From the NCBI GenBank assembly GCA_001805965.1, contig MHHG01000073.1, forward strand, positions 18,080 through 82,079: 64,000 nucleotides of DNA, read 5' to 3'. Made by a program: the position numbers and the translations under genes. The notes under the pieces are model-generated. The model searched no databases. It saw only the letters and a program-made list of their open reading frames with translations, and was not told the origin of the DNA. This document shows positions 17,516-55,277 of the stretch, piece after piece. The stretch is from Omnitrophica WOR_2 bacterium RIFOXYA2_FULL_38_17. Its GTDB lineage: Bacteria > Omnitrophota > Gorgyraeia > Zapsychrales > Zapsychraceae. The stretch's first letter is position 1, and each line of letters begins with the position of its first letter.

Positions 17516-17598
17516 TCAGATAACAAATAAATAAATTGTGCTCTAATGGGATTATTTCAATAATTTTGTCTAGATGTAATTTATTAAATATTATAAAA

Positions 17599-18107: not shown

Positions 18108-18511
18108 TTTTCTTTCGTTTCCTTTAATGCTTCAGATGCCAATCTATCAGCATCTTTGTTCTTTTCTCTAGGAACATGACTGATCTTAAAACTCTTAAAA
18201 CCCCGGGCCAATGACTTGACCTGGTCATTAAGAAACTTTAGTTTCGCATTTTTAATTTTATAAGCTCCGATAACTTGCTTATAAACTAATTCACTGTCTG
18301 TGTAGACATTGACGTCATCGGCTCTTAACACAAGCAATTCCTGCAATCCAAAAACAAGTGCCGAATACTCAGCGATATTATTTGTCGCTTCTCCAATTGG
18401 CTTTGATATTTCGCCAACACACTTTCCATCACAATTTATAACAACACCTATCGCAGCCTCCCCAGGATTACCTTTACACGCGCCATCAGTATATATTTCA
18501 AATTTTTTCAT
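18041..18511 (-). CDS. rnhA: Ribonuclease HI
   Basis: YTDGACKGNPGEAAIGVV (catalytic Asp box), ISHVPREKNKDADRLA. The non-conserved ~25-aa C-terminal tail (KQTDMVASLFEYSEEESPSSKG) is encoded by the first ~67 nt of rnpB. Confidence 0.85.
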   Translation of the reverse strand: MKKFEIYTDGACKGNPGEAAIGVVINCDGKCVGEISKPIGEATNNIAEYSALVFGLQELLVLRADDVNVYTDSELVYKQVIGAYKIKNAKLKFLNDQVKSLARGFKSFKISHVPREKNKDADRLASEALKETKEKQTDMVASLFEYSEEESPSSKG

Positions 18512-27100: not shown

Positions 27101-30100
27101 TTAAACACCCGCCGTAAGGACCTCTTCCTGCTTTTCTTCGCTTGAAAACTTAACAGATACCACACGGGAACATCCTGTCTCGGGCATGGTAATGCCGTAC
27201 ATTATATTTGCATTTGCAATTGTCTTTTTATTATGAGTAATAACAATGAACTGGGCGATTTTTGCAAAATCTTTTAGAAGGAACCCAAACCTTCCGACAT
27301 TAGATTCGTCCAGGGCAGCATCGATCTCATCCAAAACGCAGAAAGGACTTGGATTAACCTTAAACACGCCAAAGATCAAAGCAATAGCTGTTAGCGTTTT
27401 TTCTCCACCTGAAAGCAAACTGATGCTTTGCAGTTTCTTTCCCGGAGGCCTTGCAATTATCTCAATACCGGACTCCAAAACATTATCAGGTTCAAGAAGA
27501 ACCAGCTGGGCTTCTCCCCCGCCGAACAACATTCTGAAATATATCCTGAACTGCTCGCTTACTTTTGTGAACGTTTCCATGAACATTTGACGGGTTGAAC
27601 GATTAATCTTGTTGATCGTGCTCATCAATTGCGATTTTGCCTCAAAAAGATCTGATTGTTGTTTTGTCAGGAATTCAAATCTTTCCTTAAGCTGCTCATA
27701 CTCCTCAATAGCAACTAGGTTTACAGAGCCAAATGAGTCGCATTGTTTTCTTAGTTTTTCAATCTCCAAAGCCAGCTCATTCATATCAATCTGTTCAGCT
27801 TGTTCTTCAACTTCCTCAAAAGCCTTTTCAGCTTTCAGTTCTTTAACTTCAAGAACCTTACCGAATATTTCTGCTTCCAATTGAATCAAAGGACACTGGG
27901 TTGCATCTTTTTCACTAAAAGAAGTATTCATATCACGCTCTGGAGCATCTAGATCTATTTTATAAGTCTGGCTCATCCTGTCTTTGATAGCCCTAATACT
28001 AAAGGAGATCTCCTGCTCTTTAAGCTGCTTTTCATGAACTTTTTGTTTAATATCGTCGATCTCGAGCTCTAAAGCATTCATATTTGCCCTTGAGCTATTT
28101 ATTCTTTGAGCAATATCCTCTTTCTGGACAATATAATCATTCAGAACATTCTTAAACGACTCCCTCTCGCTTCTAACTTCTTCAATCCTTCGCTCTAATC
28201 CTTCTATCTCTCTCTCATATAGGCTCTTCTTATCTTCTTGCCCAATAGCCTCGTTATCAATCTTGTTAATATCTTCAAGCCATCCGTCTAGAGTCTCGGA
28301 AAACATTGATTGGTTCTTTTTGTAGCTCGTGAGCTTGTCACTATCTGCTGCAATTTCCGTTTCAAGTTGCGCAATAGACACAATAACATTTTCTTTCTCC
28401 TTTGATTTTGAAGCTATTGCTTCGCGTTTATCATGAATATCATTTTGACACCATTCAATATCCTGAGTTATAGTTTCCAGCTCATAGCTTATCCTCTCTT
28501 CATTCTTTTTTGTCTCAGCCATGAACTCTTTTACCTCTTCTATTTCAGAGCAAACAAGCTCCATCTCACCTTGCAATTTTTGCTCTTCAGCTAAAATATC
28601 ATTCCTTTGAGATTCAAGGATAGAATGCTTTTTCTCCTTATCTTGGATCTTATAAATAACCTCTTTAAATAATTCTCTGTGTTCGACTATTTGCCCAGAG
28701 ACAAAATCCCTTCTTGCCACATACTCAGAAATTTGCAGATTGATCTCATTGATCTTTAAAGATATCTGCTGCGGATCTAATTCAACAAATTTTGTTTCAC
28801 AAACGATTTCATACAATTGCAATGACTGCTCCAGACCATTTCCGACAGACTGATTGAACCTTTGCTTTAACTGCTGAAGCTGGTCATCAGCTAATGCATT
28901 AACTTCCTTTACCTTTCCAATAATGCCAGTATGATGATCCATTGGGGCTGCACTTGCATAATAACGGCCCTCGACGACAGGGTCAGGCATGTCCTGATAT
29001 TGGGCATGCAGCTTCTCAATAAACTCTTTTTGAGATTTCAAGAACAGCGTCTTCTTTTCGAGATCTTCAATAGTGCTTTTCAATTGCTCAAATTCAGCCT
29101 CATAACTTCTAAGCTTTTCTCCACGACTATCTTTGATCTGTTTAAATTCATTGATCTCAAGGTCAAGGCTATTGATTTGACCGTTGACTTCATCAAGCCT
29201 TTCATTAACCTGCTGTTTTTCAATAAGCACTTTTTCAGTTTCCAGTTCTAAACGACGCTTTCTCGCCAAATAACCCTGCATTTCCTTCATCACATCTGTA
29301 AGATCATTTCTTGTATTTGCCTGCTTTGCGCTCAAGCTCAATATGTTCTCTTCATTGCCTTTTATTTTATCTTTTGCCTCTTTAACCAATCTCTCTAATA
29401 TTGCAAGAACATCTCTTTTCTCTTTAAGCGATCTTTCATTGTGGATCTTTGCTTCCTCAAGCGTTATAAGGGCCTGCTCAAGCTCCTCGATCTTTTCCTG
29501 CTGAATTTTACATTTTTCTATCAGCTGACCTTTTTGCTCCTTTAGCTTTCGGTCATTCTGCATCAAATTCTCGATTCTCTCCTGGTTAAAACCAACCTGC
29601 CTATTATCCAGGTCGATCTGACCATCCAGTTTAATTCCCTGTGAATTAAGTTCATTTATCTTATGCTCGACTTCCCCTAAATAATTAATCTCATTAGTTA
29701 AATGCTCGGAAGCTTCCTCTAGCTCCTGATTTAAGGAATTGATCTTTTCTGTAACTTCTTTGACATGAACATCCATACTGCTTTTTTCATCTTCCAGCTC
29801 TTTAATTTGACACCTTGAATATTTTGTCTCCTGCTTTTTTAAAAATTCAAATTTCTCTTTATATTTACTTGCTTTCTTAGCCTGCCGTTCGATAGATGCA
29901 ATCTGTCTTTTAACTTCAATAGTAATATCATTGACCCTAAGCAAATTATTCTCAGTATCCTTAAGCCTGTTCAGCGCCTCTTTTTTCTTTGCTTTATATT
30001 TTGTGATTCCAGAAGCCTCATCCAAGATCATTCTTCTTTCTTCCGGTTTTGCACTGACGACCATATCAACTTTTCCCTGAGGAAGAAGCGAATAAGCTTC

Positions 30101-30505
30101 CGCCCCGATACCTGTTCCCATAAGAAGTTCTTGGATATCTTTTAATCTAACAGGGGTCTTATTCAAAAGATATTCACTCTCGCCGGAACGGAACAATCTT
30201 CTTGTTATAGTCACCTCATCGTAATCTATCGGGAGCATTTTAGATTCGTTAGAAAAGGTCAAGCTGACCTCAGCAAATCCCAAAGATGCTTTCTTTTCAG
30301 TTCCGTTAAAAATAACATCTCCCATCGCCGAGCCTCTTAACTCTTTAGCGCTTTGCTCACCTAAAACCCATCGGATAGAATCAAAGACATTACTCTTTCC
30401 GCATCCATTAGGACCGACAACAGCCGTTATTCCTGGCTCAAAATTTAAAACTGTTTTATCTGCGAAAGACTTGAACCCAAAAATTTCCAATCTTTTTAAA
30501 TACAT
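27101..30505 (-). CDS. smc: Chromosome partition protein Smc
   Basis: N-terminal Walker A FEPGITAVVGPNGCGKSNVFDSIRWVLGEQ. Long coiled coils with a central hinge. C-terminal LSGGEKTLTAIALIFGVF...CVLDEIDAALD signature/Walker B. 1134 aa. Confidence 0.95.
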   Translation of the reverse strand: MYLKRLEIFGFKSFADKTVLNFEPGITAVVGPNGCGKSNVFDSIRWVLGEQSAKELRGSAMGDVIFNGTEKKASLGFAEVSLTFSNESKMLPIDYDEVTITRRLFRSGESEYLLNKTPVRLKDIQELLMGTGIGAEAYSLLPQGKVDMVVSAKPEERRMILDEASGITKYKAKKKEALNRLKDTENNLLRVNDITIEVKRQIASIERQAKKASKYKEKFEFLKKQETKYSRCQIKELEDEKSSMDVHVKEVTEKINSLNQELEEASEHLTNEINYLGEVEHKINELNSQGIKLDGQIDLDNRQVGFNQERIENLMQNDRKLKEQKGQLIEKCKIQQEKIEELEQALITLEEAKIHNERSLKEKRDVLAILERLVKEAKDKIKGNEENILSLSAKQANTRNDLTDVMKEMQGYLARKRRLELETEKVLIEKQQVNERLDEVNGQINSLDLEINEFKQIKDSRGEKLRSYEAEFEQLKSTIEDLEKKTLFLKSQKEFIEKLHAQYQDMPDPVVEGRYYASAAPMDHHTGIIGKVKEVNALADDQLQQLKQRFNQSVGNGLEQSLQLYEIVCETKFVELDPQQISLKINEINLQISEYVARRDFVSGQIVEHRELFKEVIYKIQDKEKKHSILESQRNDILAEEQKLQGEMELVCSEIEEVKEFMAETKKNEERISYELETITQDIEWCQNDIHDKREAIASKSKEKENVIVSIAQLETEIAADSDKLTSYKKNQSMFSETLDGWLEDINKIDNEAIGQEDKKSLYEREIEGLERRIEEVRSERESFKNVLNDYIVQKEDIAQRINSSRANMNALELEIDDIKQKVHEKQLKEQEISFSIRAIKDRMSQTYKIDLDAPERDMNTSFSEKDATQCPLIQLEAEIFGKVLEVKELKAEKAFEEVEEQAEQIDMNELALEIEKLRKQCDSFGSVNLVAIEEYEQLKERFEFLTKQQSDLFEAKSQLMSTINKINRSTRQMFMETFTKVSEQFRIYFRMLFGGGEAQLVLLEPDNVLESGIEIIARPPGKKLQSISLLSGGEKTLTAIALIFGVFKVNPSPFCVLDEIDAALDESNVGRFGFLLKDFAKIAQFIVITHNKKTIANANIMYGITMPETGCSRVVSVKFSSEEKQEEVLTAGV

Positions 30506-30573: not shown

Positions 30574-30744
30574 TTACTGCTGACTTTCAAGCCAAGCGTC
30601 AATTTTTTCTTTCTTAAATCTCCACTGTCCTACAGTCTTAACCGCAGGTATCTTTCTGGTTTTTAACCATTCATAGATAGTTCTTTTCTTAACACGAAGA
30701 TAATCAGCGACTTCCTCTATTGTCATCAACGATTCATAAATCAT
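30574..30744 (-). CDS. Excisionase-family (MerR-superfamily) helix-turn-helix DNA-binding protein, 56 aa
   Basis: Hand-translated: MIYESLMTIEEVADYLRVKKRTIYEWLKTRKIPAVKTVGQWRFKKEKIDAWLESQQ. The TIEEVADYLRV..RTIYEW...IPAVK.G..WRF pattern matches the excisionase/HTH_17 DNA-binding domain. Below the ORF-track length cutoff. Confidence 0.6.
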   Translation of the reverse strand: MIYESLMTIEEVADYLRVKKRTIYEWLKTRKIPAVKTVGQWRFKKEKIDAWLESQQ

Positions 30745-31386
30745 GCTTTAGAATAACTCCCTCATAAATTAGTCTCGCTGTATATCTTTAATAGCTCGCA
30801 ACTAAATTATGTCCGTGTTAAGGCTTTCTTATAAATGGTTTTGAAATTTATATATTGATTTGAAAAATTTTATTTAATACTCATTAGCAATCTATTACAT
30901 TAAATTACACTTGTCAATATTTTTATATTTTTTTTTACATATTAAGTCATTGTTATACTATATACTCATAATATATGCCTTACATTCTATAAAATTCATT
31001 ATAATAGCATATTTATTTTTTTAATTACATTTTTTAACATTTCATAGTGTTTATATACATTTAGCTCATTTTTTAACAATTTTATACATATTCAATTTTA
31101 TTCAATAAATTTCTCCATGAAAAACAACATAATAACCATAAACTTTAAAATATCACTCATTATTCCATAATGTCTATAAAGAACCTTTGCGTAGAAATTA
31201 GTATTAGTAAAATAAAAAATGGTTTCCATAATTTAAACAATTATGGTAATATGTGACCACTTATCAGAAGTCATATTCATGCTTTTTAAAAATCAAAGAT
31301 TATTGTTGAAATTTAATTGGTTTTACTATATATAAATAAGTACTATTTTTTATTAAATATATATTAAGACGCTTACAGGAGGCAAA
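30745..31386. promoter_or_regulatory. Unusually long (~640 bp) extremely AT-rich divergent intergenic region between the HTH gene and bcd
   Basis: GC roughly 20%. Many reiterated TTTTTAACA(T/A)TT, TTATACAT and ATAATA motifs. Ends with the strong RBS AGGAGG 8 nt before the bcd ATG. Confidence 0.4.
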
Positions 31387-43367: not shown

Positions 43368-43390
43368 GGGGCCAAGTCTCGACTTGCCCC
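43368..43390. repeat. GC-rich hairpin repeat GGGGCCAAGTCTCGACTTGCCCC (copy 1 of 3)
   Basis: Imperfect palindrome with a CAAGTC/GACTTG stem and GGGG/CCCC clamp, between the oppF stop and the next gene start. Copies 2 and 3 are near-identical at 49138 and 49250. Confidence 0.5.
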
Positions 43391-43400
43391 ACCCCCAATA

Positions 43401-44270
43401 TTATTTTAGAAGAAAATGATTCCTGCCCATATCAACAAGACGCATTTCATCATTAAACTCTATCTTGGCACTACCCTTTACCGATCTATACTCAACAGAA
43501 GCAGCCAGCAGTTCTTTTGTATAAGGATGAAGCGGATCTTTAAAAATATCATCAGCTGATGCCAGTTCAACTATTTTTCCTTTATACATAACAGCGATCT
43601 TCTGACATATCTTCTGCACTACCTTCAAGTTATGGGATATAAACAAATATGTCAGATCATACCTCTTTCTAAGGTCCGCCAGAAGATCTACGATCTGCTT
43701 TTGTATTATAACATCCAGGGAAGAAACAGCCTCATCAAGAATCAATAATTTTGGATTAAGGACCAGCGATCTTGCAATTGCGATTCTTTGCCTTTCCCCC
43801 CCGCTAAATTCATGAGGATAACGCTCCAATATATCTCTATTCAGGTTTACTGCTGCGAACGTTTCAAATATTCTCTCTCTTCTGGTACTTTTTGAACACC
43901 ACTCTCCCTTGCCCAGGGTAAAACCCTCTTCCATAATATTCTCAATAGTGAATCGGGGATCCAGGCTGCTGTAAGGGTCCTGAAAAACCATCTGCATATT
44001 ACGGCGGGCGTGCTTTAATTTTGCAGAAGATCCCTTCGTTATATCAACGCCATTAAACAAAATACTTCCTGAATCAGATTTAAGAAGCCTCAACACAATT
44101 CGCGCCAGTGTTGTCTTACCGCATCCGGACTCACCGACAAGCCCTATGTTCTCTCCCTGATTTATGACAAGGTCCACATTATCAACAGCCTTGACACATG
44201 ACCTGTTCTCGCCAAAGACCCCTGTCTTTTGATAAAAACTCTTTTTTATGTTCTTGATCTCTAATAGCAT
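43401..44270 (-). CDS. oppF: Oligopeptide/dipeptide ABC transporter ATP-binding protein
   Basis: Walker A GESGCGKTT, signature LSGGERQR, Walker B LLILDEA, C-terminal oligopeptide-type extension. Confidence 0.85.
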   Translation of the reverse strand: MLLEIKNIKKSFYQKTGVFGENRSCVKAVDNVDLVINQGENIGLVGESGCGKTTLARIVLRLLKSDSGSILFNGVDITKGSSAKLKHARRNMQMVFQDPYSSLDPRFTIENIMEEGFTLGKGEWCSKSTRRERIFETFAAVNLNRDILERYPHEFSGGERQRIAIARSLVLNPKLLILDEAVSSLDVIIQKQIVDLLADLRKRYDLTYLFISHNLKVVQKICQKIAVMYKGKIVELASADDIFKDPLHPYTKELLAASVEYRSVKGSAKIEFNDEMRLVDMGRNHFLLK

Positions 44271-44277
44271 AATATTA

Positions 44278-45057
44278 TTAAGAACAGCTCAGTAACGCCT
44301 CGGTATATTTATCCTTGGGTGACCTCATAACTTCATCGGTTTTTCCAGTTTCAACTATTTTGCCGTTCGTCATGACGGCAATAGAATCGCAAAGATGGCT
44401 GACAACACCAAGGTCATGTGTTATTAATAAAATTGACAAGTTAAGTTTTTTATTAAGATCCTGAAACAATTCAATTATCTTTGCCTGAACAGTAACATCC
44501 AGATTGCTTGTAGGCTCGTCAGCAATTAACAGCTTTGGCTCTGTGGCTATCGCCTGAGCTATCATTGCACGCTGTCGCATACCACCGCTTAATTGGTGCG
44601 GGTAATTCTCATATATTTTATCCGGATAAGGCAAGCCAACCATATCAATAAGCTCGAGCACTTTCGCTTTTCTCTTATTAACATCTAGCCTGGTATGAAA
44701 TCTTAAAACTTCATTTATTTGCTCTCCGACCCTAAAAACAGGATTAAAAGCATACAAAGGCTCCTGAAAGACCATTCCTATCTTCTTGCCTCTTATCTCA
44801 CGCATTTTAGACCCTGAATATGTCAACAAATTGTAGCCTTCAAACAATATTTCCCCGCCATCTATTTTTAAAGCAGCTGCCAACAACCTGATGATCGACA
44901 AGCCGATCGTGGTTTTCCCGCTGCCTGACCCGCCGACAAGGCCAACAATACTGTTCTCAGCAATAGATAGGCTGACTTTATCTACAATGTTCTTGGACTG
45001 CTCTCCCTGTTTTACGCTGACTATCAGGTTCTGGATTTTTATTATTTTAGGCACCAT
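44278..45057 (-). CDS. oppD: Oligopeptide/dipeptide ABC transporter ATP-binding protein
   Basis: Walker A GGSGSGKTT, LSGGMRQR, LLIADEPTSNLD. Confidence 0.85.
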   Translation of the reverse strand: MVPKIIKIQNLIVSVKQGEQSKNIVDKVSLSIAENSIVGLVGGSGSGKTTIGLSIIRLLAAALKIDGGEILFEGYNLLTYSGSKMREIRGKKIGMVFQEPLYAFNPVFRVGEQINEVLRFHTRLDVNKRKAKVLELIDMVGLPYPDKIYENYPHQLSGGMRQRAMIAQAIATEPKLLIADEPTSNLDVTVQAKIIELFQDLNKKLNLSILLITHDLGVVSHLCDSIAVMTNGKIVETGKTDEVMRSPKDKYTEALLSCS

Positions 45058-46150
45058 CTACTTCACCCCTTAATAGCGGATCCAGGCAATCCCTTAATGT
45101 ATCGCCAACAACGTTAAAACAAATAACCGTCAGGAAGATCATAAAACCCGGCATCAATATCCATGGATGCATCTGAATGTGAGCTATCGCCATTGCATCG
45201 CTCAGCATATTTCCCCAACTTGCTATCGGGTCCTGTATGCCTAATCCTATCAAACTAAGCGCAGCCTCACCTAAAATATATCCCGGAATCGAAAGCATAA
45301 TAGCTACGATTGAATAGCTGACCGTATGTGGCAGAATATGTCGTATAATGATTTTAAGGTCAGATACACCAGCAGCTTTTGCAGCCAGCACATATTCACG
45401 CTCACGAAGTGTGATGCTCATGCCTCTTATGATCCTTGCTAAAGATGCCCACCCTATAAATGACAAAATAACAACTATTGCAAGATAAACCTGGAACGAG
45501 TTAAAGCTGTCAGGAACTGCCGAACGAAGCGCAAGCATCAAATAAAATCCCGGGACCATCATGAACATTTCGCACAGACGCATAATAATATTATCAATCT
45601 TACCCCCGTAATATCCGGCAACACCTCCGATAAGCAAACCTAAAGTAAAAGAGATCGATACGCCAATAAGCCCTATTGATAATGAAATACGTGCCCCGTA
45701 GATCAACCTGGAAAATATATCGCGCCCGCGTACATCCGCTCCCATAATGTATAAACGTCCCGGAGAATCAACTCCAAAAAGATGCCTGTCTGTTTTCAAC
45801 AGTCCTAATAATTTATATGCATCACCCTTATTGAATAGATGGAAATAACATTTAGTATTATCTTTCTCCACATAGGTCCTTTTATGATATTCATCGAAGT
45901 TAAAAGATAATTCCCTCACAAATGGCCAGCTAAATCTTCCATTCTCATCAACAAAATGCACTTTTGATAATGAAGCATAAGAATAATCCCTCGCTTCACT
46001 GTCATAAGTATACGGCGCAATAAAATCCGCGAATATCGCCCCAAAATATAAGATCCCAAGTATCGCAAGACATACTATCCCGCGCCTTGACCTTTTAAAC
46101 TCCGACAAAGCAAGAGCAAATTGACTTTTTGATTTAAATTGTTTGTTCAT
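45047..46150 (-). CDS. oppC: Oligopeptide ABC transporter permease
   Basis: Six TM helices and the ABC permease EAA-like region (AAKAAGVSDLKIIIRHILP). 367 aa with N-terminal extension, as in OppC/DppC. Confidence 0.85.
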   Translation of the reverse strand: MNKQFKSKSQFALALSEFKRSRRGIVCLAILGILYFGAIFADFIAPYTYDSEARDYSYASLSKVHFVDENGRFSWPFVRELSFNFDEYHKRTYVEKDNTKCYFHLFNKGDAYKLLGLLKTDRHLFGVDSPGRLYIMGADVRGRDIFSRLIYGARISLSIGLIGVSISFTLGLLIGGVAGYYGGKIDNIIMRLCEMFMMVPGFYLMLALRSAVPDSFNSFQVYLAIVVILSFIGWASLARIIRGMSITLREREYVLAAKAAGVSDLKIIIRHILPHTVSYSIVAIMLSIPGYILGEAALSLIGLGIQDPIASWGNMLSDAMAIAHIQMHPWILMPGFMIFLTVICFNVVGDTLRDCLDPLLRGEVDGA

Positions 46151-46163
46151 AGTGACATATAAT

Positions 46164-46268
46164 TGTTGTCTTAAGTTCGCTAATGTTAGCTAAAGTTCGC
46201 TGAGGTTAATTGTTCTTATTAAGTAAATTTTTTAACTTAAGACAACCTTTGCTAACATTAGCCAACCT
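46164..46268. repeat. Intercistronic element of 10-bp periodic repeats arranged as inverted blocks (oppC-oppB spacer)
   Basis: Forward decamers CGCTAATGTT, AGCTAAAGTT, CGCTGAGGTT. After a ~30-nt AT-rich spacer, reverse-strand units AACTTAAGAC, AACCTTTGCT, AACATTAGCC. Includes a perfect 13-nt inverted repeat GTTGTCTTAAGTT / AACTTAAGACAAC. Confidence 0.6.
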
Positions 46269-47237
46269 CTATTTATCATACCTAATTCTCGGATCACTCC
46301 AAGCCAATAAAATATCTGCGATCAAATTTCCTAATAAAAGTAAAACTCCACCCATTAACATACTCGACATAACCAAATAAACATCCTTAGCCCTTACTGC
46401 GGTAAGCATCAGCGAACCCAGTCCGGGCCAATTACAAATGATCTCAATAAGCGCCGCCCCGCCTAGTAAGCTTGATAGCTCATATCCGAACAATGTGATC
46501 AAAGGATTAATGGCATTTCTCAATGCATGGACATAAATAACCCTGTTTTCAGGCAGACCCTTCGCCCTTGCGGTCAAAATATATTGCTGCCTCAAAGTCT
46601 CTAAAAAGTTACCTCTCATGATCCTCTGAAGACTGGCAATAGAACCCAAAGATATCACAACCGTTGGGATGATCAAGTGCCTCAGAAGATCTATTATTTT
46701 TCCCATAAAAGTCAGATCATCAAAATTAGCGCTGTACATCCCTCCCAACGGGAAAATGCCGCTTCGGCTTGCAAAGAAAAGCAGCAACATAGCAAGGAAA
46801 AAACTGGGGATAGATAGGCAGATAAATGAAACCATCGATAATGTTTTATCAATAATACGATTACGATTCACTGCAGCTAAAATACCCAATGGTATCGCAA
46901 CTGCCCATGTCAAGACCATGCTGGCAAAGGATAAAATAAAAGTATTAAATAACCGTCCTGAAAGTATCTTTGAAACCGGCACATTGTAAAAGAATGAATA
47001 CCCGAATTCCAGATGAACGATATTTTTTAGCCAATGCAAATACTGCTGAAGCAAAGGCTTATCGAGCTGATACAGCTCTTCGTACCTAGCCAGAGTCTCT
47101 TCAGATATCTGCGGGTCCATTCTCAATGTATCAAAAAAGTTGCCTGGAGTTATATGCATCAAATAAAATGTAAGCAGGCTCATCACAAGCAGCAATGGAA
47201 TAGAAACTAAGATTCTTTTAATAATGTATTTAAACAT
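46269..47237 (-). CDS. oppB: Oligopeptide ABC transporter permease
   Basis: ABC permease with 6 TM helices and the conserved loop TARAKGLPENRVIYVHALRNA. 322 aa. Confidence 0.85.
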   Translation of the reverse strand: MFKYIIKRILVSIPLLLVMSLLTFYLMHITPGNFFDTLRMDPQISEETLARYEELYQLDKPLLQQYLHWLKNIVHLEFGYSFFYNVPVSKILSGRLFNTFILSFASMVLTWAVAIPLGILAAVNRNRIIDKTLSMVSFICLSIPSFFLAMLLLFFASRSGIFPLGGMYSANFDDLTFMGKIIDLLRHLIIPTVVISLGSIASLQRIMRGNFLETLRQQYILTARAKGLPENRVIYVHALRNAINPLITLFGYELSSLLGGAALIEIICNWPGLGSLMLTAVRAKDVYLVMSSMLMGGVLLLLGNLIADILLAWSDPRIRYDK

Positions 47238-47265
47238 AATTTATTGATCTAAAAATAAACTTATA

Positions 47266-47382
47266 ATGTTAGCAGAGGTTAGCTAAGGTTTGCTTATGTT
47301 CGCTTAGGTTAATTAGTCATGTTTAAGCAAATCTTTAACCTAAGCCAACCTTTTCCAACTTTAGCCAACATAAGCCAACCTG
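47266..47382. repeat. Second copy of the 10-bp periodic inverted repeat-block element (oppB-oppA spacer)
   Basis: Four tandem forward decamers AGCAGAGGTT, AGCTAAGGTT, TGCTTATGTT, CGCTTAGGTT. After a 30-nt spacer, four reverse-strand decamers AACCTAAGCC, AACCTTTTCC, AACTTTAGCC, AACATAAGCC. Same unit consensus nGCTnAnGTT as the 46164 element. Confidence 0.6.
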
Positions 47383-49131
47383 TTACCTGTATTCTTCCCT
47401 AATTATCAATTCATCCAAATTATGGAACAATCCGCCAAACTTGGTCGGGTTTAGATTTTCAAACTTATTCCTTACCGAATATAACCGAGATGATAATACT
47501 GTATAGATCATAGGAAGCTTTTGTGAAATGATCCTCTGGAACTCATCATACAACTGCTTCCTTTTATTCTCATCCAATTCCTGCACTCCTTGATTGAATA
47601 TCTCATCTATCCTGGCTTCCCAGTCTGTTGCCGGTGATTCCTGACGAGGGTACCACATATGAAGGTTTCCTTTGGAATCCCAGACATTCTTTCCAAAATG
47701 AGGCTCTATGCCTCCTGTTAGCCCTAATACCACCGCCTCCCACTCATAAGTGGATGTCAATTTACTCACTATATTATTAAACTCTAATACGAGAAAGTTC
47801 ACCTTCATTCCAATAGCCTGCAGATCGGAACGAATTATAGAAGCTATTAAAACCCTCGGATCACCCATACCGCCGTTTGTATACAGATTAAATTCAAGAA
47901 CATTTCCTTTTGTATCCTCTAAATAACCATCACCATCTCTATCAATAAATCCCTGGGATCTCAAAATGGCTCTTGCCTTATCAAGATCATAATCATATTC
48001 CGTAACATCAGGATTATAATAAAATCCCGCGCTGGGGCTCATTGAGGAATATTGGGGATAGCCGAATCCGTTCATTACCATTTCAACGATCCTCTGTTTA
48101 TCAATAGCATGCGCGACAGCTTTCCTAAACTCAACGTTGGTAAACCATTCCAGTTTATAATCTTCAACATACGGTTTATTAGTTTGAGCATTTGTCCCTC
48201 TGTTCTGGTTAAAGAAAATAAAATTTGAACCAAATGCGGGCCCAATGTCCAAGACTTCATAATCGCCCCTCTTTTCATTAGGCTTCACAAGAGGATAATC
48301 CTGCGCACGTATTGCTACAGCGTCAAGCTCACCATCAAGGAACTTTAACAACTCAACATCCTGGCTCTGCACGATCAAATAAACGACCTTTTCAATGTAT
48401 GGAAGTCGGTCACCAGAATCCGATCTTTTCCAGTAATTCGGATTTCTTCTATACATGAGCCTTTGCCCAGGCTTATAATCAGTCAAAATATATGCACCCG
48501 TGCCGATGATCTCTTTCGGATCCGTATCTATACCCCATGTAAAATTGAATTTTCCGGCATCAACAGCGTTTTTAAGCCTATGCTTTGGCAGGATCGACTG
48601 CCCCATGCTTCTTAAAAAGGGCGCAAACTTAACAGGCAGGGTAAATCTGACCGTCAGGTCATCCACTTTTTCCACGTTGAATTTATTTCCGTCAACTGAG
48701 AAAATATCGCTGGCCGAGTTAGGGACTGTTTCATTGTATATCAGGTCGTTGAATGTGAAGACAACATCATCCGCGGTGAATTGCTTTCCGTCAAACCAAA
48801 GAACATCATCACGAAGATGAAAGGTCCAAATCAGCCCGTCACTTGATACATCCCAGCTTTGCGCCAAGTTAGGCTCAACCTCGCCTGTAATGCCATTGGT
48901 CCTGGTTAAACCTTCGAACAACATATTAGTTACATCCGTCGTTGAGGTTTCCTTGGCTAGAATATCATTGAATGACTTTGGATCGCTCGTTGTTGACAGG
49001 ACAAGAGTCCCGCCATATTTATCATTAGGAACATCAGCGAAAACATTTGAAGAGATAATTGAACCAAGAATGGAAAAGAATGCGAACAAGCAGATCGAAG
49101 AGAGAAAATTCTTTTTCTTATTTTTGTGCAT
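47383..49131 (-). CDS. oppA: Oligopeptide ABC transporter substrate-binding protein (SBP family 5)
   Basis: Start set at MHKNKKKNFLSSICLFAFFSILGSIISSNVFA (signal peptide) at 49131. The ORF-track start at 49248 reads through an upstream hairpin-repeat region. SBP_bac_5 fold motifs throughout. Confidence 0.8.
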   Translation of the reverse strand: MHKNKKKNFLSSICLFAFFSILGSIISSNVFADVPNDKYGGTLVLSTTSDPKSFNDILAKETSTTDVTNMLFEGLTRTNGITGEVEPNLAQSWDVSSDGLIWTFHLRDDVLWFDGKQFTADDVVFTFNDLIYNETVPNSASDIFSVDGNKFNVEKVDDLTVRFTLPVKFAPFLRSMGQSILPKHRLKNAVDAGKFNFTWGIDTDPKEIIGTGAYILTDYKPGQRLMYRRNPNYWKRSDSGDRLPYIEKVVYLIVQSQDVELLKFLDGELDAVAIRAQDYPLVKPNEKRGDYEVLDIGPAFGSNFIFFNQNRGTNAQTNKPYVEDYKLEWFTNVEFRKAVAHAIDKQRIVEMVMNGFGYPQYSSMSPSAGFYYNPDVTEYDYDLDKARAILRSQGFIDRDGDGYLEDTKGNVLEFNLYTNGGMGDPRVLIASIIRSDLQAIGMKVNFLVLEFNNIVSKLTSTYEWEAVVLGLTGGIEPHFGKNVWDSKGNLHMWYPRQESPATDWEARIDEIFNQGVQELDENKRKQLYDEFQRIISQKLPMIYTVLSSRLYSVRNKFENLNPTKFGGLFHNLDELIIREEYR

Positions 49132-49137
49132 AGTATA

Positions 49138-49274
49138 GGGGTCAAGTCTCGACTTGACTACACCTTTATTATTTTCGTAAAATAAAAGTACACATGAGCG
49201 CAAACAACAAAACACTTCATTGCGAGGAATAAAAAAAGCATCTTGCATAGGGAAGCAAGTCGAGACTTGCCCCC
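49138..49274. repeat. Pair of inverted GC-rich hairpin repeats (copies 2 and 3) flanking a 91-bp AT-rich segment in the secG-oppA spacer
   Basis: GGGGTCAAGTCTCGACTTGAC at 49138..49158 and its reverse-complement form GGGAAGCAAGTCGAGACTTGCCCCC at 49250..49274. Same family as 43368..43390. Confidence 0.5.
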
Positions 49275-51737: not shown

Positions 51738-54700
51738 CTAATTTAAGCTAACTTCAAGAACCTCTTTAGATCCGGTATTTTTTCCAAACAAGATCGGCAG
51801 GATCGTTACTGGAGTGATATTGATTATTACAGGTGTGAATCCGCGTATATCGAGGTTTTCAATATCCTGAAATTCAATTGGAAACGGGATATTATGATCA
51901 TCCCGCTTTATCTTAAAATTAATATTCAAAGGATTCAAATCGATACCACCAACATTCTGTTCCCTTGTGGCTAAATTTTCATCATCGGTCTGATCTATCC
52001 TGTTTAAACCGAGAATAGCAGCATCTGCATATGTAAATTCAGCATTAAGCTGTAATATTTCTTGAGGATTAAGGTCTTCTTTCGCAAGCTGGTAAATAAC
52101 CTTATGGTTCTTTACTCCTTCTTTCCACCCGACATCTTCATTCATAGCATTTTCAACGATTTGTTTCCAAAGCCCTGAATTTTCATTATAAACCCTGTTA
52201 GCCCGCATTATTGTATTGAAAAATTCCTGCGCATTATGATCACGTCGATAATTATCTTCCCATGGATTTGCAAATGTCCTATCTGCCCCGTAAAATCCAA
52301 AACCTGTCTGCTGTGGTGACCCTTCGCCAATTACACTGTCTATCAATCCACCTGTCCATCTTACTATCGGGATAGCCCCGTATAACAAAGCTTTTAATTG
52401 CCCAAGACCAGACGGCTCAAAATCAGAAGGCATCAAAAGAGCATCAATACCAGAAAGAAGCATTCTTTCTATATCCACGTCAAAAGGAGAATAAACAACA
52501 TTTATGTCAATTGATACATCATCTGAAGTCTCTTGCGCCAATCTTTTGATCTCATCAACTATCCATTTCTCATTATCTTCTCCATCCCCTAAAACCACCA
52601 GGTCAATCGGAAGCTTGGTTTCTTTTGCCTTTTGAATCACCTGCGGCAGAATATCCATTTGTTTCTGCTTTACCAGGCGGGCATTCGTACCTAAAAGCAT
52701 TCTTTGAGAACCGACCTCTAAATTTCCATAATAAGATCCATCATTCTTCTTATTTGAAAAATATTCCTGAATAGATCTTTTATTTTGCGATCGCGCTTCT
52801 AACACACTGTCAATTCCATCATTTATCGAATAATTTACATGAATTTTGTTATCCGTTTTTGGATTCCAAAGCTCAACGCTTACGCCATTCATAATTCCTA
52901 AAAAATACTTTCCCGCTGCTTTAAGACGTGTATCTGAAGTAAAACCAAAAGGCGTATTAATAACCTGCTGTGCATATGTAGGGCTCACGGTAGTTGCATA
53001 ATTACCTGGGCCTAAAATGCCGACTGCACCGGCAAGAAGCTGGATCTCCCTTTTGTACTCTTTATTAGGGATATAAAGCAACTCTTCAATTTCCGGAAAT
53101 TCTTGCAAGCCCAATTCTTCAGCCAGATCAGTATTGTAATCTCCAGGATAACCAATATTGTTTATTGCAAATACACTGGCAACATCCTTAAAATCGTCCT
53201 TAAATATGCTTCTCATATAAAGCGAGACCAAGGCTGTATGATGATCATGAGCTTCAACAACATCCAGTTGCTCGTTTAGTCCTAGCTTTTTCAATAGCAT
53301 TAAGCCAGCTTTAGATAAAATAACCGACTCGTAAAACTCATTATCTTTATTCTGATAAAGATCATTGAACAAACTTACATCATCGACATTTAAAGCATAA
53401 ACTTCCACGCCATCAATAATTGTTTTCTGCGCAGTAACAGTGACATTCGCTCTTTTTTTAAACCCAACTATTTCTTCAAAACCCTCAACATCCGTCCAAA
53501 TGTATTTATCATAGTTCAATTGTTTTGATCTTCCCTTAAACCTGGGGACAACAACAACCGGCCTGGTTGATTCATCAGTTGATTTTGCTAACTCAACAAA
53601 TTTTTCATAAACAGCATCACCAAGTCCGGCCCTCTTGGCAACAGCAGAGAACTCCATTGAGATTGCGGCTGCGCGCCCTTCAAAACGAGGAGCAACTCTG
53701 ACAATACCATCTGTTTCCACATATTGTCTTTCACCGCGAGGATCATTAATCCACATCATGCTGCCATCATTTTGCTCAATCGCAAATGTGTAGGCAAATT
53801 CATAAGCAGCATCTGTTTCTATTCTTAATTTAACCTGATATTCATTTTTACCATCTCTATACCCCAGCTTTTCAACAACCCCTTTTTTTGAAACCCATGC
53901 CCCACCCAGATTAGAATGAAGAATTATACTTTCAGAAATATCTTTATCTTCACCTTCAATGCTTATTTTTAACGAAAATTCCTCACCTGAGAGAGCATTT
54001 ATATTCTTGGTAACATTCGGGATATAAATATTACCCAGCATAGAAGTGTCTACTGGATCTTTTTTATCATTTACGGGGCTAAGATCATCATTTAAGATCA
54101 CCTTTGTATTATCAAGATTGGAACTGTTAAGCTCCCCCCTAATGCCAGCAAAATATTCTTCAGGTATCCTCTGACGATCCTTTGTTACTTCAGTAATACG
54201 TTCATAATCATTCCCGTTCCACCCTCCGCTAAAATATTTTCTAGGTATGATCTGCTGAGTTGAAGGGTCATATTCTTCTTTAATATAGTTAAAAACACCA
54301 TTCTTAAAACTTTCAACATACTGGTTGTAAATCTTTTCTTTTATTGTTTTATCTTCGATATCTATTCCATCAACCTTTGCCTTATCGACATAAACTTTAC
54401 CCAACAGACTTTCCTTTAAGGTCTTTTTATACCAAGTCGCAAGGATCAATGAATTTGTAATTTGTCTTAAAAGGGCGAAATGCTTGCCGTGATTTACTTC
54501 TTTTTCTAGCTCCGGGATAATAATTTCCCTGATTATTGATTTAGCATTCTCCTGTTTATCTATCGCTAACAAATCCTCATCTGAAGACAATCGTTCTTTC
54601 TGATTATTTTGCTGTGATAAATAATCTTCCTCTAACATGACCTTCAAATGGCTTTTGACCAAATATGCGACATTACCTTCCTCGTAAACAAGCGCCTCAT

Positions 54701-55277
54701 CCGGAACGATCCATACTTTGTTAAAAGTATCAATGGGAATATCCTCAGTGCCATACTTTTCGTAAGCCAGATCATATATCCTGTCCCAAAAACTACGGCC
54801 TATTTTTTCATCAGGATTCAGCAAGGACGCCGTTATCTGTTTAAGCAGGTAATCCTGAGCAAGAAGGTCGCGGCCCATCTCGGTATAACTGAATTTTTCC
54901 GGAATAATACGATCATTTTCATACGGGGATAAATTAACCCACATCTGATCTTCGGGAATAGTTAAAGATGCAAGAAAATACTTGATCAATTTATTATATT
55001 TTACCTGCTTTTCATCATCATCAAGGACCTCATCACCCTTGCTAATAATAAAATTAAACTCTAACGGGTTACTGGGATTGATCTCAACTGCCTTTATAGA
55101 GGCGGGTTCAAAAAGATCACTCAATCCAACAAGGGTGCCAACACTTGGAAGCCCTAATAAACTTTGAGCTTGATAAAGTGCAACCTGAGCATATGCCGCA
55201 GGTAAAATTTGAACAGATAAAAACGCAAATACTATCAAAACTGATACAAATTTTCTAAAATGTGTTGATATCTTCAT
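51738..55277 (-). CDS. Large exported multidomain protein (1179 aa): shared N-terminal domain, putative carbohydrate-binding middle region, glycogen/starch-synthase-like GT5 domain and conserved C-terminal module
   Basis: Sec signal peptide with AYA/Q cleavage site. N-terminal ~330 aa paralogous to 34583..37531 (WVNLSPYENxRIIPE, TEMGRDLLAQDYLLKQ, DTFNKVWIVPD, IIPRKYFSGG). The central region matches GlgA: EFSAVAKRAGLGDA (KTGGL box variant), EAHDHHTAL, TTVSPTYAQQV, GIMNGVSVELWNPKTD, SDFEPSGLGQLKALLYGAIPIVRWTGGLIDSV. C-terminal NVGGIDLN...IKR..IPFP...GFTPVIINITPV module plus a charged tail. Confidence 0.75.
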   Translation of the reverse strand: MKISTHFRKFVSVLIVFAFLSVQILPAAYAQVALYQAQSLLGLPSVGTLVGLSDLFEPASIKAVEINPSNPLEFNFIISKGDEVLDDDEKQVKYNKLIKYFLASLTIPEDQMWVNLSPYENDRIIPEKFSYTEMGRDLLAQDYLLKQITASLLNPDEKIGRSFWDRIYDLAYEKYGTEDIPIDTFNKVWIVPDEALVYEEGNVAYLVKSHLKVMLEEDYLSQQNNQKERLSSDEDLLAIDKQENAKSIIREIIIPELEKEVNHGKHFALLRQITNSLILATWYKKTLKESLLGKVYVDKAKVDGIDIEDKTIKEKIYNQYVESFKNGVFNYIKEEYDPSTQQIIPRKYFSGGWNGNDYERITEVTKDRQRIPEEYFAGIRGELNSSNLDNTKVILNDDLSPVNDKKDPVDTSMLGNIYIPNVTKNINALSGEEFSLKISIEGEDKDISESIILHSNLGGAWVSKKGVVEKLGYRDGKNEYQVKLRIETDAAYEFAYTFAIEQNDGSMMWINDPRGERQYVETDGIVRVAPRFEGRAAAISMEFSAVAKRAGLGDAVYEKFVELAKSTDESTRPVVVVPRFKGRSKQLNYDKYIWTDVEGFEEIVGFKKRANVTVTAQKTIIDGVEVYALNVDDVSLFNDLYQNKDNEFYESVILSKAGLMLLKKLGLNEQLDVVEAHDHHTALVSLYMRSIFKDDFKDVASVFAINNIGYPGDYNTDLAEELGLQEFPEIEELLYIPNKEYKREIQLLAGAVGILGPGNYATTVSPTYAQQVINTPFGFTSDTRLKAAGKYFLGIMNGVSVELWNPKTDNKIHVNYSINDGIDSVLEARSQNKRSIQEYFSNKKNDGSYYGNLEVGSQRMLLGTNARLVKQKQMDILPQVIQKAKETKLPIDLVVLGDGEDNEKWIVDEIKRLAQETSDDVSIDINVVYSPFDVDIERMLLSGIDALLMPSDFEPSGLGQLKALLYGAIPIVRWTGGLIDSVIGEGSPQQTGFGFYGADRTFANPWEDNYRRDHNAQEFFNTIMRANRVYNENSGLWKQIVENAMNEDVGWKEGVKNHKVIYQLAKEDLNPQEILQLNAEFTYADAAILGLNRIDQTDDENLATREQNVGGIDLNPLNINFKIKRDDHNIPFPIEFQDIENLDIRGFTPVIINITPVTILPILFGKNTGSKEVLEVSLN

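What the first reader, a model, noticed from the sequence alone, without database searches (positions are those of the whole stretch)
46151..47382. Two copies of a 10-bp-periodic inverted repeat-block element occupy both internal intercistronic spacers of the opp operon
The oppC-oppB (118 bp) and oppB-oppA (145 bp) spacers each contain 3-4 tandem decamers of consensus nGCT(A/T)AnGTT on the top strand. A ~30-nt AT-rich spacer follows, then 3-5 tandem decamers of the reverse complement AAC(n)T(A/T)AGCC. Because the units are iterated at exactly one helical turn and the two blocks are mutually complementary, the RNA can form long imperfect hairpins with several alternative registers. The DNA presents a phased array of half-sites on one helix face. 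Both are plausible regulatory devices: mRNA-stabilising structures like the enterobacterial REP elements in opp operons, or a repressor array.
Basis: seen in the sequence. Interest (0 to 1): 0.6.

Follow-up and report, generated by a model that had tools for sequence, protein, structure and literature searches.

The report
Foldback decamer repeats inside opp operon
Two copies of a previously undescribed, probably mobile, repeat made of ten-base units in mirror-image blocks were recently inserted between genes of a peptide-transporter operon in an Omnitrophota bacterium, and similar repeats turn up in very different environmental bacteria.

Summary
Both internal spacers of a minus-strand oppABCDF operon in an Omnitrophota genome hold a roughly 100-115-bp element. 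It has 4-5 phased decamers (consensus GTTNGCTNAG), an AT-rich centre, then 3-5 reverse-complement decamers. Nothing similar occurs elsewhere in the 64 kb (about 0.01 matches expected by chance).

It is not an opp-specific device.
- The same family is dispersed in the nearest sequenced relative, at gene junctions of polysaccharide clusters. Some copies have toxin-antitoxin, nuclease or IVP genes between or beside the blocks.
- Relatives with 86% OppB identity or less have overlapping or tightly abutting opp genes, so both copies are recent insertions.
- The arms show no compensatory changes and pair no better with each other than with arms of other copies. What is conserved is the 10-bp unit.
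- The copy after oppA is conserved far above neutral sites.

Best reading: a new foldback-type (MITE/REP-like) dispersed repeat. Its arms are arrays of a sequence-specific recognition unit, and as a consequence it puts strong hairpins (-33 and -42 kcal/mol) into the opp mRNA. The copy after oppA may have been co-opted.

Inverted GTTNGC decamer arrays also occur in more than 100 distinct metagenomic elements, including Gaiellaceae-like soil bacteria. I found no Rfam family and no published description.

The parts
46151..46268 (-). oppB|oppC intercistronic spacer (118 bp) holding element S1
   Evidence: ORF ends; Pfam
46165..46209 (.). S1 block of 4 full decamers plus GTTAA. This is the 3' arm in the mRNA.
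46210..46231 (.). S1 AT-rich centre. It is homologous to the S2 centre.
   Evidence: D1
46232..46266 (.). S1 reverse-complement block (TTAAC plus 3 decamers). This is the 5' arm in the mRNA and starts 2 nt after the oppB stop codon.
47238..47382 (-). oppA|oppB intercistronic spacer (145 bp) holding element S2
47268..47312 (.). S2 block of 4 decamers plus GTTAA (3' arm in the mRNA)
47313..47334 (.). S2 centre. It is 90% identical to the centre of the orthologous copy in the related MAG.
47335..47379 (.). S2 reverse-complement block (TTAAC plus 4 decamers). This is the 5' arm in the mRNA and starts 3 nt after the oppA stop codon.
46269..46280 (-). Left copy of the possible target duplication (mRNA TATGATAAATAG). 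It retains the ancestral overlapping oppC start (ATG) inside the end of oppB.
   Evidence: Comparison with empty sites in L198, L201 and L202, (inference)
46140..46151 (-). Right copy of the possible target duplication (mRNA TATGAACAAACA), holding the present oppC start
   Evidence: inference
47383..49248 (-). oppA (SBP_bac_5). The true start is probably the ATG at 49131.
46269..47237 (-). oppB permease
45047..46150 (-). oppC permease
43401..45057 (-). oppD and oppF ATPases. Their junctions carry no element (oppC/oppD overlap by 11 nt; oppD/oppF are 7 nt apart).

Best explanation
S1 and S2 are two copies of a lineage-specific, dispersed foldback repeat. It is a miniature, non-coding element of the MITE/REP kind. 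Each arm is an array of 3-5 head-to-tail copies of a 10-bp unit (GTTNGCTNAG), and the two arms lie in inverted orientation around a short AT-rich centre.

Shown:
- The family is multi-copy in the nearest relative and sits at gene junctions.
- The two opp copies were gained in a recent ancestor, at junctions where the genes previously overlapped or abutted.
- One copy derives from the other or from the same master.
- What is conserved is the unit sequence, not arm-to-arm pairing.

Inferred:
- The unit is a recognition site for a sequence-specific protein that binds once per helical turn. This could be the factor that moves or recombines the element, or a small Xis/BldC-like winged-helix protein.
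- The blocks act as multi-site terminal repeats.
- Once transcribed within the opp mRNA, the element folds into a long imperfect hairpin just downstream of the stop codon. This breaks the ancestral translational coupling. For the copy after oppA, it probably protects the oppA segment or damps read-through into oppBCDF. That would explain why this copy is kept under purifying selection.
For: Dispersed family:
- An exact-pattern scan of one genome per species found the relative MAG 'Candidatus Omnitrophota Modern_marine.mb.324'. It is about 86% identical and syntenic.
- That MAG carries both opp copies plus at least 10 further arrays on two other contigs.
- Those arrays lie between co-directional genes of EPS/exosortase clusters. 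Three consecutive junctions around HTH_17 and DUF1016 are occupied.
- MNT-HEPN and 23S_rRNA_IVP genes lie between blocks; an AbiEii gene lies next to a left block.
- Further copies: L104/L115 between two glycosyltransferase genes, and L204/L206/L207.

Gain:
- Elements are present at 99, 97 and 94% OppB identity (L195, MAG, L196).
- They are absent at 86, 83, 81, 80 and 79% identity. There oppB and oppC overlap by 8-11 nt, and oppA/oppB overlap or are 5-42 nt apart.
- The ancestral TATGAnnAAA overlap is present on both sides of S1.

Common origin of S1 and S2: 75% identity over 103 nt, including the centre.

Unit constraint rather than pairing constraint:
- Eight of ten unit positions are fixed across 111 units.
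- There are 0 compensatory pairs of 30 in the orthologue alignments of S2 and of S1; observed changes break pairs.
- Native arm pairs are no more stable than chimeric pairs after orientation is controlled: -26.9 versus -26.8 kcal/mol, native better in 4 of 9.

Selection on S2:
- Arms are 91-95% and the centre 90% identical between window and MAG.
- By comparison the spacer tail is 71% identical, and four-fold sites of oppA/oppC differ at 34-39%.
- Binomial P about 2e-12.

Hairpin strength.

No known RNA family. No promoter or intrinsic terminator in the elements.
Against: - No transposase, recombinase or autonomous copy was found next to any array in about 100 kb of Omnitrophota sequence examined.
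- The target duplication at S1 is weak evidence. Much of the shared TATGA is forced by the start codon and the conserved OppB C-terminus, and none is visible at S2.
- Only two copies occur in this 64-kb window, and the window's own genome could not be surveyed.
- A purely selfish element would not be expected to be conserved as strongly as S2.
- The binding protein is hypothetical. The only candidate, a 61-aa HTH_17 protein flanked by two copies in the MAG, is not flanked by them in its 87%-identical orthologue.
- No expression data exist, so every RNA-level effect is inferred.
Confidence: 0.6

Rival explanations
1. A host-evolved RNA device. The hairpins exist because they stabilise or process the polycistronic opp mRNA (REP-like 3' protection, RNase III site, attenuator). 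The decamer periodicity would be incidental.
For: - Strong folds on the mRNA strand, better than on the antisense strand: -33.3 versus -28.8 and -41.7 versus -34.3 kcal/mol.
- The elements start 2-3 nt after the stop codons.
- S2 after the binding-protein gene is conserved above neutral.
- The oppA|oppB junction has been colonised independently by other hairpin-forming repeats in L200 and L199.
- E. coli has a stem-loop at the same junction.
Against: - No compensatory substitutions; the changes seen break pairs.
- Arms fit arms of other copies equally well.
- The N position of paired units is usually not complementary.
- The strand that folds better is antisense to the flanking genes in 3 of 8 copies, including the MAG orthologue of S1.
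- The same element sits between unrelated genes and around cargo genes.
- It is absent from most relatives.
- There is no U tract.
Confidence: 0.14
2. A double-stranded-DNA operator or architectural array with no mobility. A small BldC/Xis/Cox-like winged-helix protein would polymerise head-to-tail on the decamers, one per helical turn. The two opposed filaments would shape or silence local DNA, for example as a roadblock or insulator inside operons.
For: - Strict 10-bp phasing, and unit conservation without pairing constraint.
- The centre length of 32 nt is kept in S1, S2 and MAG-S2 despite two offsetting indels.
- In the MAG a 61-aa HTH_17 gene is sandwiched between two complete elements.
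- Its closest solved natural relatives are the 71-72-aa DNA-binding proteins 6AMA/6AMK and a phage protein, Gp37. From my own knowledge, 6AMA/6AMK are BldC bound head-to-tail to direct repeats, and Gp37 is an excisionase.
Against: - The 87%-identical orthologue of that HTH_17 gene has no decamer arrays beside it. Other homologues simply head EPS or sulfation clusters.
- The window's own HTH_17-like ORF (30574-30744) is far from the elements.
- The arrays are intercistronic, not at promoters.
- A regulator hypothesis does not explain the cargo genes between blocks or the recent gain.
Confidence: 0.13
3. Site-specific recombination sites that mark cassette boundaries (integron-like). The opp copies would be empty sites or scars.
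For: - In the MAG and in L204-L207 the arrays bound small accessory cassettes: MNT-HEPN, 23S_rRNA_IVP, AbiEii, DUF1016, DUF4143, RhuM/Fic.
- In L196 a Fic/RhuM cassette follows oppB, where S1 and oppC lie in the window.
Against: - The orientation is GTT...AAC, the opposite of attC (RYYYAAC...GTTRRRY).
- No integrase was found in any locus.
- Other repeat families bound cassettes in the same regions.
- oppA, oppB and oppC are core genes, not cassettes.
Confidence: 0.08
4. Chance similarity or a purely local duplication with slippage, without wider meaning.
For: Only two copies occur in this window, and they are adjacent in one operon.
Against: - Chance expectation is 0.01.
- The same family occurs on other contigs of a relative and in other Omnitrophota.
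Confidence: 0.01

Closest known systems
REP / BIME elements of enterobacteria and pseudomonads (with RAYT transposases)
   Same: - Extragenic and intercistronic.
- Dispersed imperfect palindromes, often just after stop codons inside operons.
- They form hairpins in mRNA.
- They are reported to bind proteins (review PMC2817692, seen).
   Different: - A REP is a single 20-40-nt palindrome with a conserved head. It is not an array of phased 10-bp units.
- No RAYT gene was found beside any array. The one Y1_Tnp seen (L208) has no arrays near it.
- Copy number here is unknown.
Bacterial MITEs that fold in mRNA (Correia/CREE, ERIC, RUP, BOX; reviews PMC2229807 and PMC3184786)
   Same: - About 100-150 bp and non-coding.
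- Inverted termini and multiple copies.
- Presence/absence between relatives, and insertion inside operons.
   Different: - The termini here are tandem arrays of one decamer rather than a unique terminal inverted repeat.
- The target duplication is uncertain.
- No parent IS is known.
- Some copies enclose non-transposase cargo.
Eukaryotic Foldback (FB) transposons (own knowledge)
   Same: Long inverted arms, each built from tandem sub-repeats (including 10-bp units), around a variable centre that may carry genes.
   Different: - FB elements are eukaryotic and kilobase-scale.
- There is no evidence of homology; the resemblance is architectural only.
Short tandemly repeated intergenic sequences: cyanobacterial STRR heptamers and TAACTGA repeats of Beggiatoaceae (PMC4679880)
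   Same: - Head-to-tail arrays of one short unit in intergenic regions, close to start codons.
- The same unit occurs in distant phyla.
- Function unknown.
   Different: - Those are 7-nt units in direct orientation only.
- No inverted partner block and no hairpin.
Operator arrays of small winged-helix proteins (BldC, lambda Xis, P2 Cox, 186 Apl; own knowledge; PDB 6AMA/6AMK hit)
   Same: Several direct repeats spaced one helical turn apart, read by head-to-tail multimers of a 50-70-aa protein.
   Different: - Those arrays lie at promoters or att sites and are single-copy.
- They are not dispersed inverted double blocks at gene junctions.
Stem-loop after oppA in E. coli K-12 (oppA-oppB spacer)
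   Same: A strong hairpin directly downstream of the binding-protein gene of an opp operon. The 91-nt stretch spanning the 85-bp spacer folds to -33.7 kcal/mol, z -4.1.
   Different: - It is a single GC-rich 12-bp stem followed by a U-rich run.
- It is not repetitive, not periodic, and not annotated as REP.

Membership tests
REP/BIME | Unit is one short (about 20-40 nt) imperfect palindrome with a conserved head sequence | tested here: not met
   The arms are 3-5 tandem decamers with consensus GTTNGCTNAG.
REP/BIME | Extragenic and dispersed in many copies per genome | tested here: inconclusive
   All copies seen are extragenic. There are 2 in the 64-kb window and at least 12 arrays in about 34 kb of the relative MAG. 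No whole genome was available.
REP/BIME | Cognate RAYT (Y1 transposase) gene flanked by the repeats | tested here: inconclusive
   None was found beside any array. One Y1_Tnp lies in L208/L209, which have no arrays. The genomes were only sampled.
MITE | Small (<300 bp), non-coding, with inverted termini | tested here: met
   102 and 112 bp; inverted blocks 74-80% complementary; no ORF spans them.
MITE | Presence/absence at orthologous sites in relatives | tested here: met
   Present at 94-99% OppB identity. Empty, overlapping junctions at 79-86%.
MITE | Target-site duplication | tested here: inconclusive
   At S1, TATGATAAATAG versus TATGAACAAACA (8 of 12 identical). Part of this is forced by coding. 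None is visible at S2.
MITE | Autonomous relative with the same termini encoding a transposase | tested here: not met
   The genes between or beside the blocks are MNT-HEPN, 23S_rRNA_IVP, HTH_17 and DUF1016, none a transposase. Only about 100 kb was sampled.
Integron attC | RYYYAAC at the 5' end and GTTRRRY at the 3' end of an imperfect palindrome | tested here: not met
   The elements read GTT...AAC on either strand, and GCCAAC/AGCCAAC does not fit RYYYAAC.
Integron attC | Integron integrase nearby, or an array of promoterless cassettes | tested here: inconclusive
   No integrase appears in the Pfam scans of the loci. Cassette-like accessory genes are present.
Intrinsic terminator | GC-rich stem directly followed by a U tract | tested here: not met
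   The terminator scan finds nothing in the spacers. The nearest U-rich run is 9 nt after S2.
Any Rfam family | Match at or near the gathering score | tested here: not met
   No match in the window at gathering score. The best permissive hits are miRNA-precursor models at 18-23 bits against cut-offs of 67-80. None in 17 related loci.
BldC/Xis-type operator array | Direct repeats at about 10-11-bp spacing | tested here: met
   The period is exactly 10 in all arrays.
BldC/Xis-type operator array | Cognate small winged-helix gene linked to the array, and binding shown | tested here: inconclusive
   An HTH_17 gene is flanked by two elements in one MAG only, and its orthologues are not. Binding cannot be tested here.
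STRR / heptamer direct repeats | Heptamer unit, direct orientation only | tested here: not met
   The unit is 10 nt, and each array has an inverted partner block.

The most novel reading that the evidence does not exclude
Inverted blocks of phased decamers with a GTTNGC core may be a widespread, undescribed class of bacterial interspersed element. They would be read, once per helical turn, by a conserved or convergently recruited protein. On this reading they act as insertion or recombination points for small accessory gene cassettes at operon junctions, a bacterial counterpart of foldback transposons.

Evidence that does not exclude this:
- A capped metagenome scan returned 119 stretches, of which 105 are distinct elements. 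The units next to those demanded by the pattern carry the full core in 23-54% of cases.
- Families exist at GC 0.36, 0.42-0.50, 0.56-0.63 and 0.64-0.71. The last is Gaiellaceae-like (Actinomycetota), far from Omnitrophota.
- Viral contigs have essentially none.

The main caveat is that the search pattern itself imposed the core. No permuted-core control could be run.
Probability: 0.22. Interest if true: 0.75.

Novelty: new variant of a known kind. Interest (0 to 1): 0.55.

Why it matters
It adds a new architecture to the short list of bacterial interspersed repeats: arms made of one phased 10-bp unit rather than a unique palindrome. The host phylum, Omnitrophota, has almost no experimental genetics.

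It is a clean natural experiment in operon evolution. Two translationally coupled junctions (overlapping stop and start codons) were split by insertions, yet the operon was kept. One insert is now under purifying selection. This makes two questions directly testable: how such elements change relative expression within ABC-transporter operons, and what protein reads the unit.

If the cross-phylum families share a mechanism, the unit points to an unrecognised DNA-binding or recombination system that shuffles small defence and toxin-antitoxin cassettes.

Practically, these arrays break assemblies and can mislead gene callers. Examples are the oppA start here and the truncated oppB call in L196.

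Tried and rejected
- **Known RNA families.** Rfam at gathering score on the window and on 17 related loci, and a permissive scan of the spacers. Only sub-threshold miRNA-hairpin matches.
- **Promoter or terminator in the elements.** None.
- **Covariation.** Orthologue alignments give 0 compensatory pairs.
- **Arm-swap test.** The first version suggested native arms pair worse than chimeras in the high-GC family. That was an artefact of mixed element orientation. After orienting the copies there is no difference in any family.
- **RNA-strand preference.** The better-folding strand is the sense strand in 5 copies and the antisense strand in 3, so it gives no answer.
- **HTH_17 protein as cognate binder.** Attractive in one MAG, but not reproduced in homologues.
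- **tRNA or tmRNA identity of the soil family's 3' part.** ARAGORN and Rfam were negative, no 5' half exists, and there are no integrases nearby.
- **Phage origin.** 0 and 1 hits in 2.9 million viral contigs.
- **Other copies in the window.** None by pattern, lag-10 scan or short-word BLAST.
- **Extending the window's own genome.** The proteins are not on record.
- **Literature.** Four full-text searches found no description of such elements.
- **REP in E. coli opp.** Not annotated.
Full report
**1. What is there**

The window encodes, on the minus strand, secG, oppA (SBP_bac_5), oppB, oppC (permeases), oppD and oppF (ATPases). The oppB|oppC spacer is 46151-46268 (118 bp) and the oppA|oppB spacer is 47238-47382 (145 bp).

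Each spacer holds, on the plus strand:
- four full decamers plus a fifth half unit (GTTAA);
- an AT-rich centre;
- a half unit (TTAAC) followed by three (S1) or four (S2) reverse-complement decamers.

A two-and-a-bit-unit pattern with one mismatch allowed hits 11 times, all in the two spacers. The chance expectation is 0.01. Nothing else in the 64 kb has four GTT at a lag of 10, and no isolated exact unit occurs outside the elements.

S1 and S2 are direct copies of each other, 75% identical over 103 nt including the centre. They are the longest local inverted repeats in the window.

On the mRNA strand they fold to -33.3 kcal/mol (z -6.1) and -41.7 kcal/mol (z -4.5).

**2. Whose genome, and is the element elsewhere?**

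An exact-pattern scan of one genome per species returned mostly unrelated simple 10-mer tandem repeats. It also returned five loci of one MAG, 'Candidatus Omnitrophota Modern_marine.mb.324'.
- One of its contigs is syntenic with the window at about 86% DNA identity.
- That contig carries an element in both opp spacers.
- OppB homologues confirm the phylum.

In that MAG the family is dispersed.
- On contig 158 the arrays lie between genes of a nucleotide-sugar/exosortase cluster. A left block precedes an MNT-HEPN pair. A full element follows that pair. A 23S_rRNA_IVP gene lies between a left and a right block. An AbiEii gene lies next to a left block.
- On contig 15 three successive junctions are occupied: upstream of a 61-aa HTH_17 gene, between it and a DUF1016 nuclease gene, and after that gene.

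Other Omnitrophota carry copies too. L104/L115 has one between two glycosyltransferase genes. L204, L206 and L207 have copies beside DUF4143, RhuM and DUF1016 cassettes. The element is thus a dispersed repeat family, not an opp-specific device.

**3. Gain, not ancient conservation**

Contigs carrying OppB relatives show the elements at 99% identity (L195, identical), 97% (the MAG) and 94% (L196/L197). In L196 the S2 arms are recognisable but the centre is replaced by 69 nt.

At lower OppB identity the decamer arrays are absent:
- 86% (L200), 83% (L198), 81% (L201), 80% (L202) and 79% (L199);
- where the oppB|oppC junction is on the contig (L198, L199, L201, L202; the L200 contig ends 32 nt after oppB), oppB and oppC overlap by 8-11 nt in the ATGA style;
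- oppA and oppB overlap or are 5-42 nt apart, except in L199, where the 530-nt spacer holds a different repeat and a small ORF.

Parsimony makes both copies insertions in a recent common ancestor of the clade at 94% identity or more.

At S1 the window still keeps the ancestral overlapping start inside the end of oppB (mRNA TATGATAAATAG). A similar string carries the present oppC start on the other side of the element (TATGAACAAACA). This is what a staggered-cut insertion into an overlapping stop/start would leave. Much of the shared sequence is dictated by coding, however, so I count it only as compatible with a target duplication.

The same oppA|oppB junction has been colonised independently by other repeats. 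L200 has a GGGACAG...CTGTCCC hairpin. L199 has two copies of a roughly 110-nt repeat around a 78-aa ORF. In L196 a Fic/RhuM cassette follows oppB instead of oppC.

**4. What is conserved**

From 111 units the logo is G T T N G C T N A G, with eight positions at 0.61-1.0. Three of these (T7, A9, G10) were not used to find the units.

The pairing between the two arms carries no independent signal.
- Orthologue alignments of S2 (4 sequences) and S1 (3 sequences) each give 30 predicted pairs with 0 compensatory changes. The substitutions that occur break pairs.
- The N position of opposed units matches in 13% of cases, against 32% for shuffled partners. This reflects one arm being G-rich at N.
- Once copies are oriented alike, native arm pairs are no more stable than chimeric pairs: -26.9 versus -26.8 kcal/mol in the Omnitrophota family. 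The two other families show no difference either (which corrects an orientation artefact).
- The strand that folds better as RNA is the sense strand in five copies and the antisense strand in three, including the MAG orthologue of S1.

The hairpin is therefore a consequence of two inverted arrays of one unit. There is no evidence that pairing as such is what selection sees.

**5. Selection on S2**

Between window and MAG, S2 is 91% (5' arm), 90% (centre) and 95% (3' arm) identical. The centre keeps its length through two offsetting indels. The rest of the spacer is 71% identical, and four-fold degenerate sites of oppA and oppC differ at 34-39%. For 107 of 116 identical columns against a neutral 64%, P is about 2e-12.

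S1 is only 77% identical and has been rearranged.

Against L196 the S2 arms are 77-81% identical. That is about the similarity any two arrays of the family share (S1 versus S2 is 75%). At that distance only the unit consensus is demonstrably maintained.

**6. Mechanism**

Shown:
- a multi-copy family at gene junctions;
- recent gain at two formerly coupled junctions;
- common origin of the two copies;
- constraint on the unit sequence;
- extra constraint on S2;
- strong predicted mRNA hairpins starting 2-3 nt after the stop codons and ending 14-30 nt before the next start codon.

Inferred:
- The 10-bp unit is a site for a sequence-specific protein that binds once per turn.
- The blocks behave as multi-site terminal repeats of a miniature foldback element, which spreads by transposition or recombination and can carry or trap small cassettes.
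- In the opp transcript the elements abolish the ancestral translational coupling.
- S2 has probably been co-opted to favour oppA over oppBCDF. This is analogous to the stem-loop directly after oppA in E. coli K-12.

No promoter or intrinsic terminator is predicted in the elements, and no Rfam family matches.

A candidate binder is the BldC/Xis-like 61-aa HTH_17 protein flanked by two copies in the MAG. Its best natural solved relatives are 6AMA/6AMK and a phage protein, Gp37. The linkage is not reproduced in its orthologues, so this remains a lead only.

**7. Beyond Omnitrophota**

Of these, 105 are distinct elements. The units flanking the ones demanded by the pattern carry the full GTT.GC core in 23-54% of cases, against well under 1% expected.

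They fall into families of very different base composition.
- **Soil family, GC 0.64-0.71.** Three units per arm, a conserved 28-29-nt centre, then a tRNA 3'-half-like sequence and a terminator. There are several direct copies per contig, among ordinary genes and without integrases. A neighbouring gene's nearest named relative is from Gaiellaceae.
- **Freshwater-type families, GC 0.56-0.63.** Tight hairpins (GTTKGCRRTK) that fill the gap between stop and start codons of unrelated genes.
- **A family at GC 0.42-0.50.** Up to eight units per arm.

Viral contigs have essentially none.

Because the pattern imposed the core, I cannot say that GTTNGC is special.

**8. Comparison with known systems, and verdict**

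The elements work like REP/BIME or hairpin-forming MITEs. They fail the defining structural feature of REP (a single short palindrome). They lack a demonstrated target duplication and a parent IS for MITE membership. Their orientation is the opposite of integron attC sites. They are not terminators. They differ from STRR and TAACTGA arrays in unit length and in having an inverted partner block (PMC4679880).

The nearest architectural analogue is the eukaryotic foldback transposon (own knowledge). Four literature searches found no description of such bacterial elements.

I therefore class the finding as a real feature and a new variant of a known kind: a dispersed intergenic foldback repeat.

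Noticed in passing
window 43368-43391, 49138-49161, 49251-49274: A second repeat family, the REP-like palindrome GGGGNCAAGTCTCGACTTGNCCCC (often inside TAGGGG...CCCCTA), brackets the opp operon. One copy follows oppF and an inverted pair lies between secG and oppA. Chance expectation is 0. The same family occurs in the related MAG and in L204 9195-9260.
   Followed up: partly
window 49131-49248: The mechanical oppA ORF (621 aa, start 49248) runs over the palindromes. The ATG at 49131, followed by a lysine-rich and then hydrophobic signal-like N-terminus, gives 582 aa. That matches relatives of 568-587 aa.
   Followed up: partly
window 17592-18110: The RNase P RNA (class A) match spans 519 nt for a 367-position model, so it must contain large insertions.
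   Followed up: no
L199 9470-9985; L200 860-915: In more distant relatives the oppA|oppB junction holds other, unrelated hairpin-forming repeats. L199 has two direct copies of a roughly 110-nt repeat (TGTCATCCCCGAATG...CGGGAATGACA) around a 78-aa ORF. L200 has a GGGACAGACACCTTTTG/CAAAAGGTGTCTGTCCC hairpin that extends the oppA reading frame. The junction after the binding-protein gene therefore looks like a hot spot or a selected place for stem-loops.
   Followed up: partly
L196 3800-5950: In the 94% relative, oppB is followed by a Fic/RhuM gene and an unknown gene instead of oppC. This may be a rearrangement or cassette insertion at the position of S1, or an assembly join at a repeat.
   Followed up: no
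L204 6186-6330: Downstream of an HTH_17 gene there are three short arrays of 7-8-nt units (TAAGCCTT, CTTACGNN, GCTTAAA). These Omnitrophota intergenic regions carry several kinds of short tandem arrays.
   Followed up: no
L102, L157, L081, L087, L093 and about 40 other soil contigs (e.g. L157 2044-2190): High-GC (Gaiellaceae-like) dispersed element. It consists of 9-10-nt arrays in a hairpin, then a tRNA 3'-half-like sequence (GGTCGTGGGTTCGAGTCCCATCATCCGC), then a terminator. There are several direct copies per contig and no 5' tRNA half. Neither ARAGORN nor Rfam detects it, and no integrase is nearby. L087 also has (GCTGCAATG)n of variable length beside it.
   Followed up: partly
L007, L036, L038, L057, L058, L061, L063 (Verrucomicrobiota BP_749): Long arrays (up to about 19 units) of GTTCGCTGAC sit at the ends of many contigs of one MAG. 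This is a dispersed tandem decamer that breaks the assembly. PVC-group genomes are frequent among the tandem-pattern hits.
   Followed up: no
window 30574-30744 (minus): A 56-aa HTH_17-like ORF lies directly upstream of a 1134-aa gene (27101-30505). The same pairing occurs in relative L198 (51-aa HTH_17 plus a 1108-aa SMC_N/AAA protein). A 19-nt tandem repeat lies upstream at 30829-30865.
   Followed up: no
window 51738-55277 (minus): A 1179-aa starch/glycogen-synthase-like protein has its Glyco_transf_5 domain starting only at residue 538. The 537-residue N-terminal part has no Pfam match.
   Followed up: no
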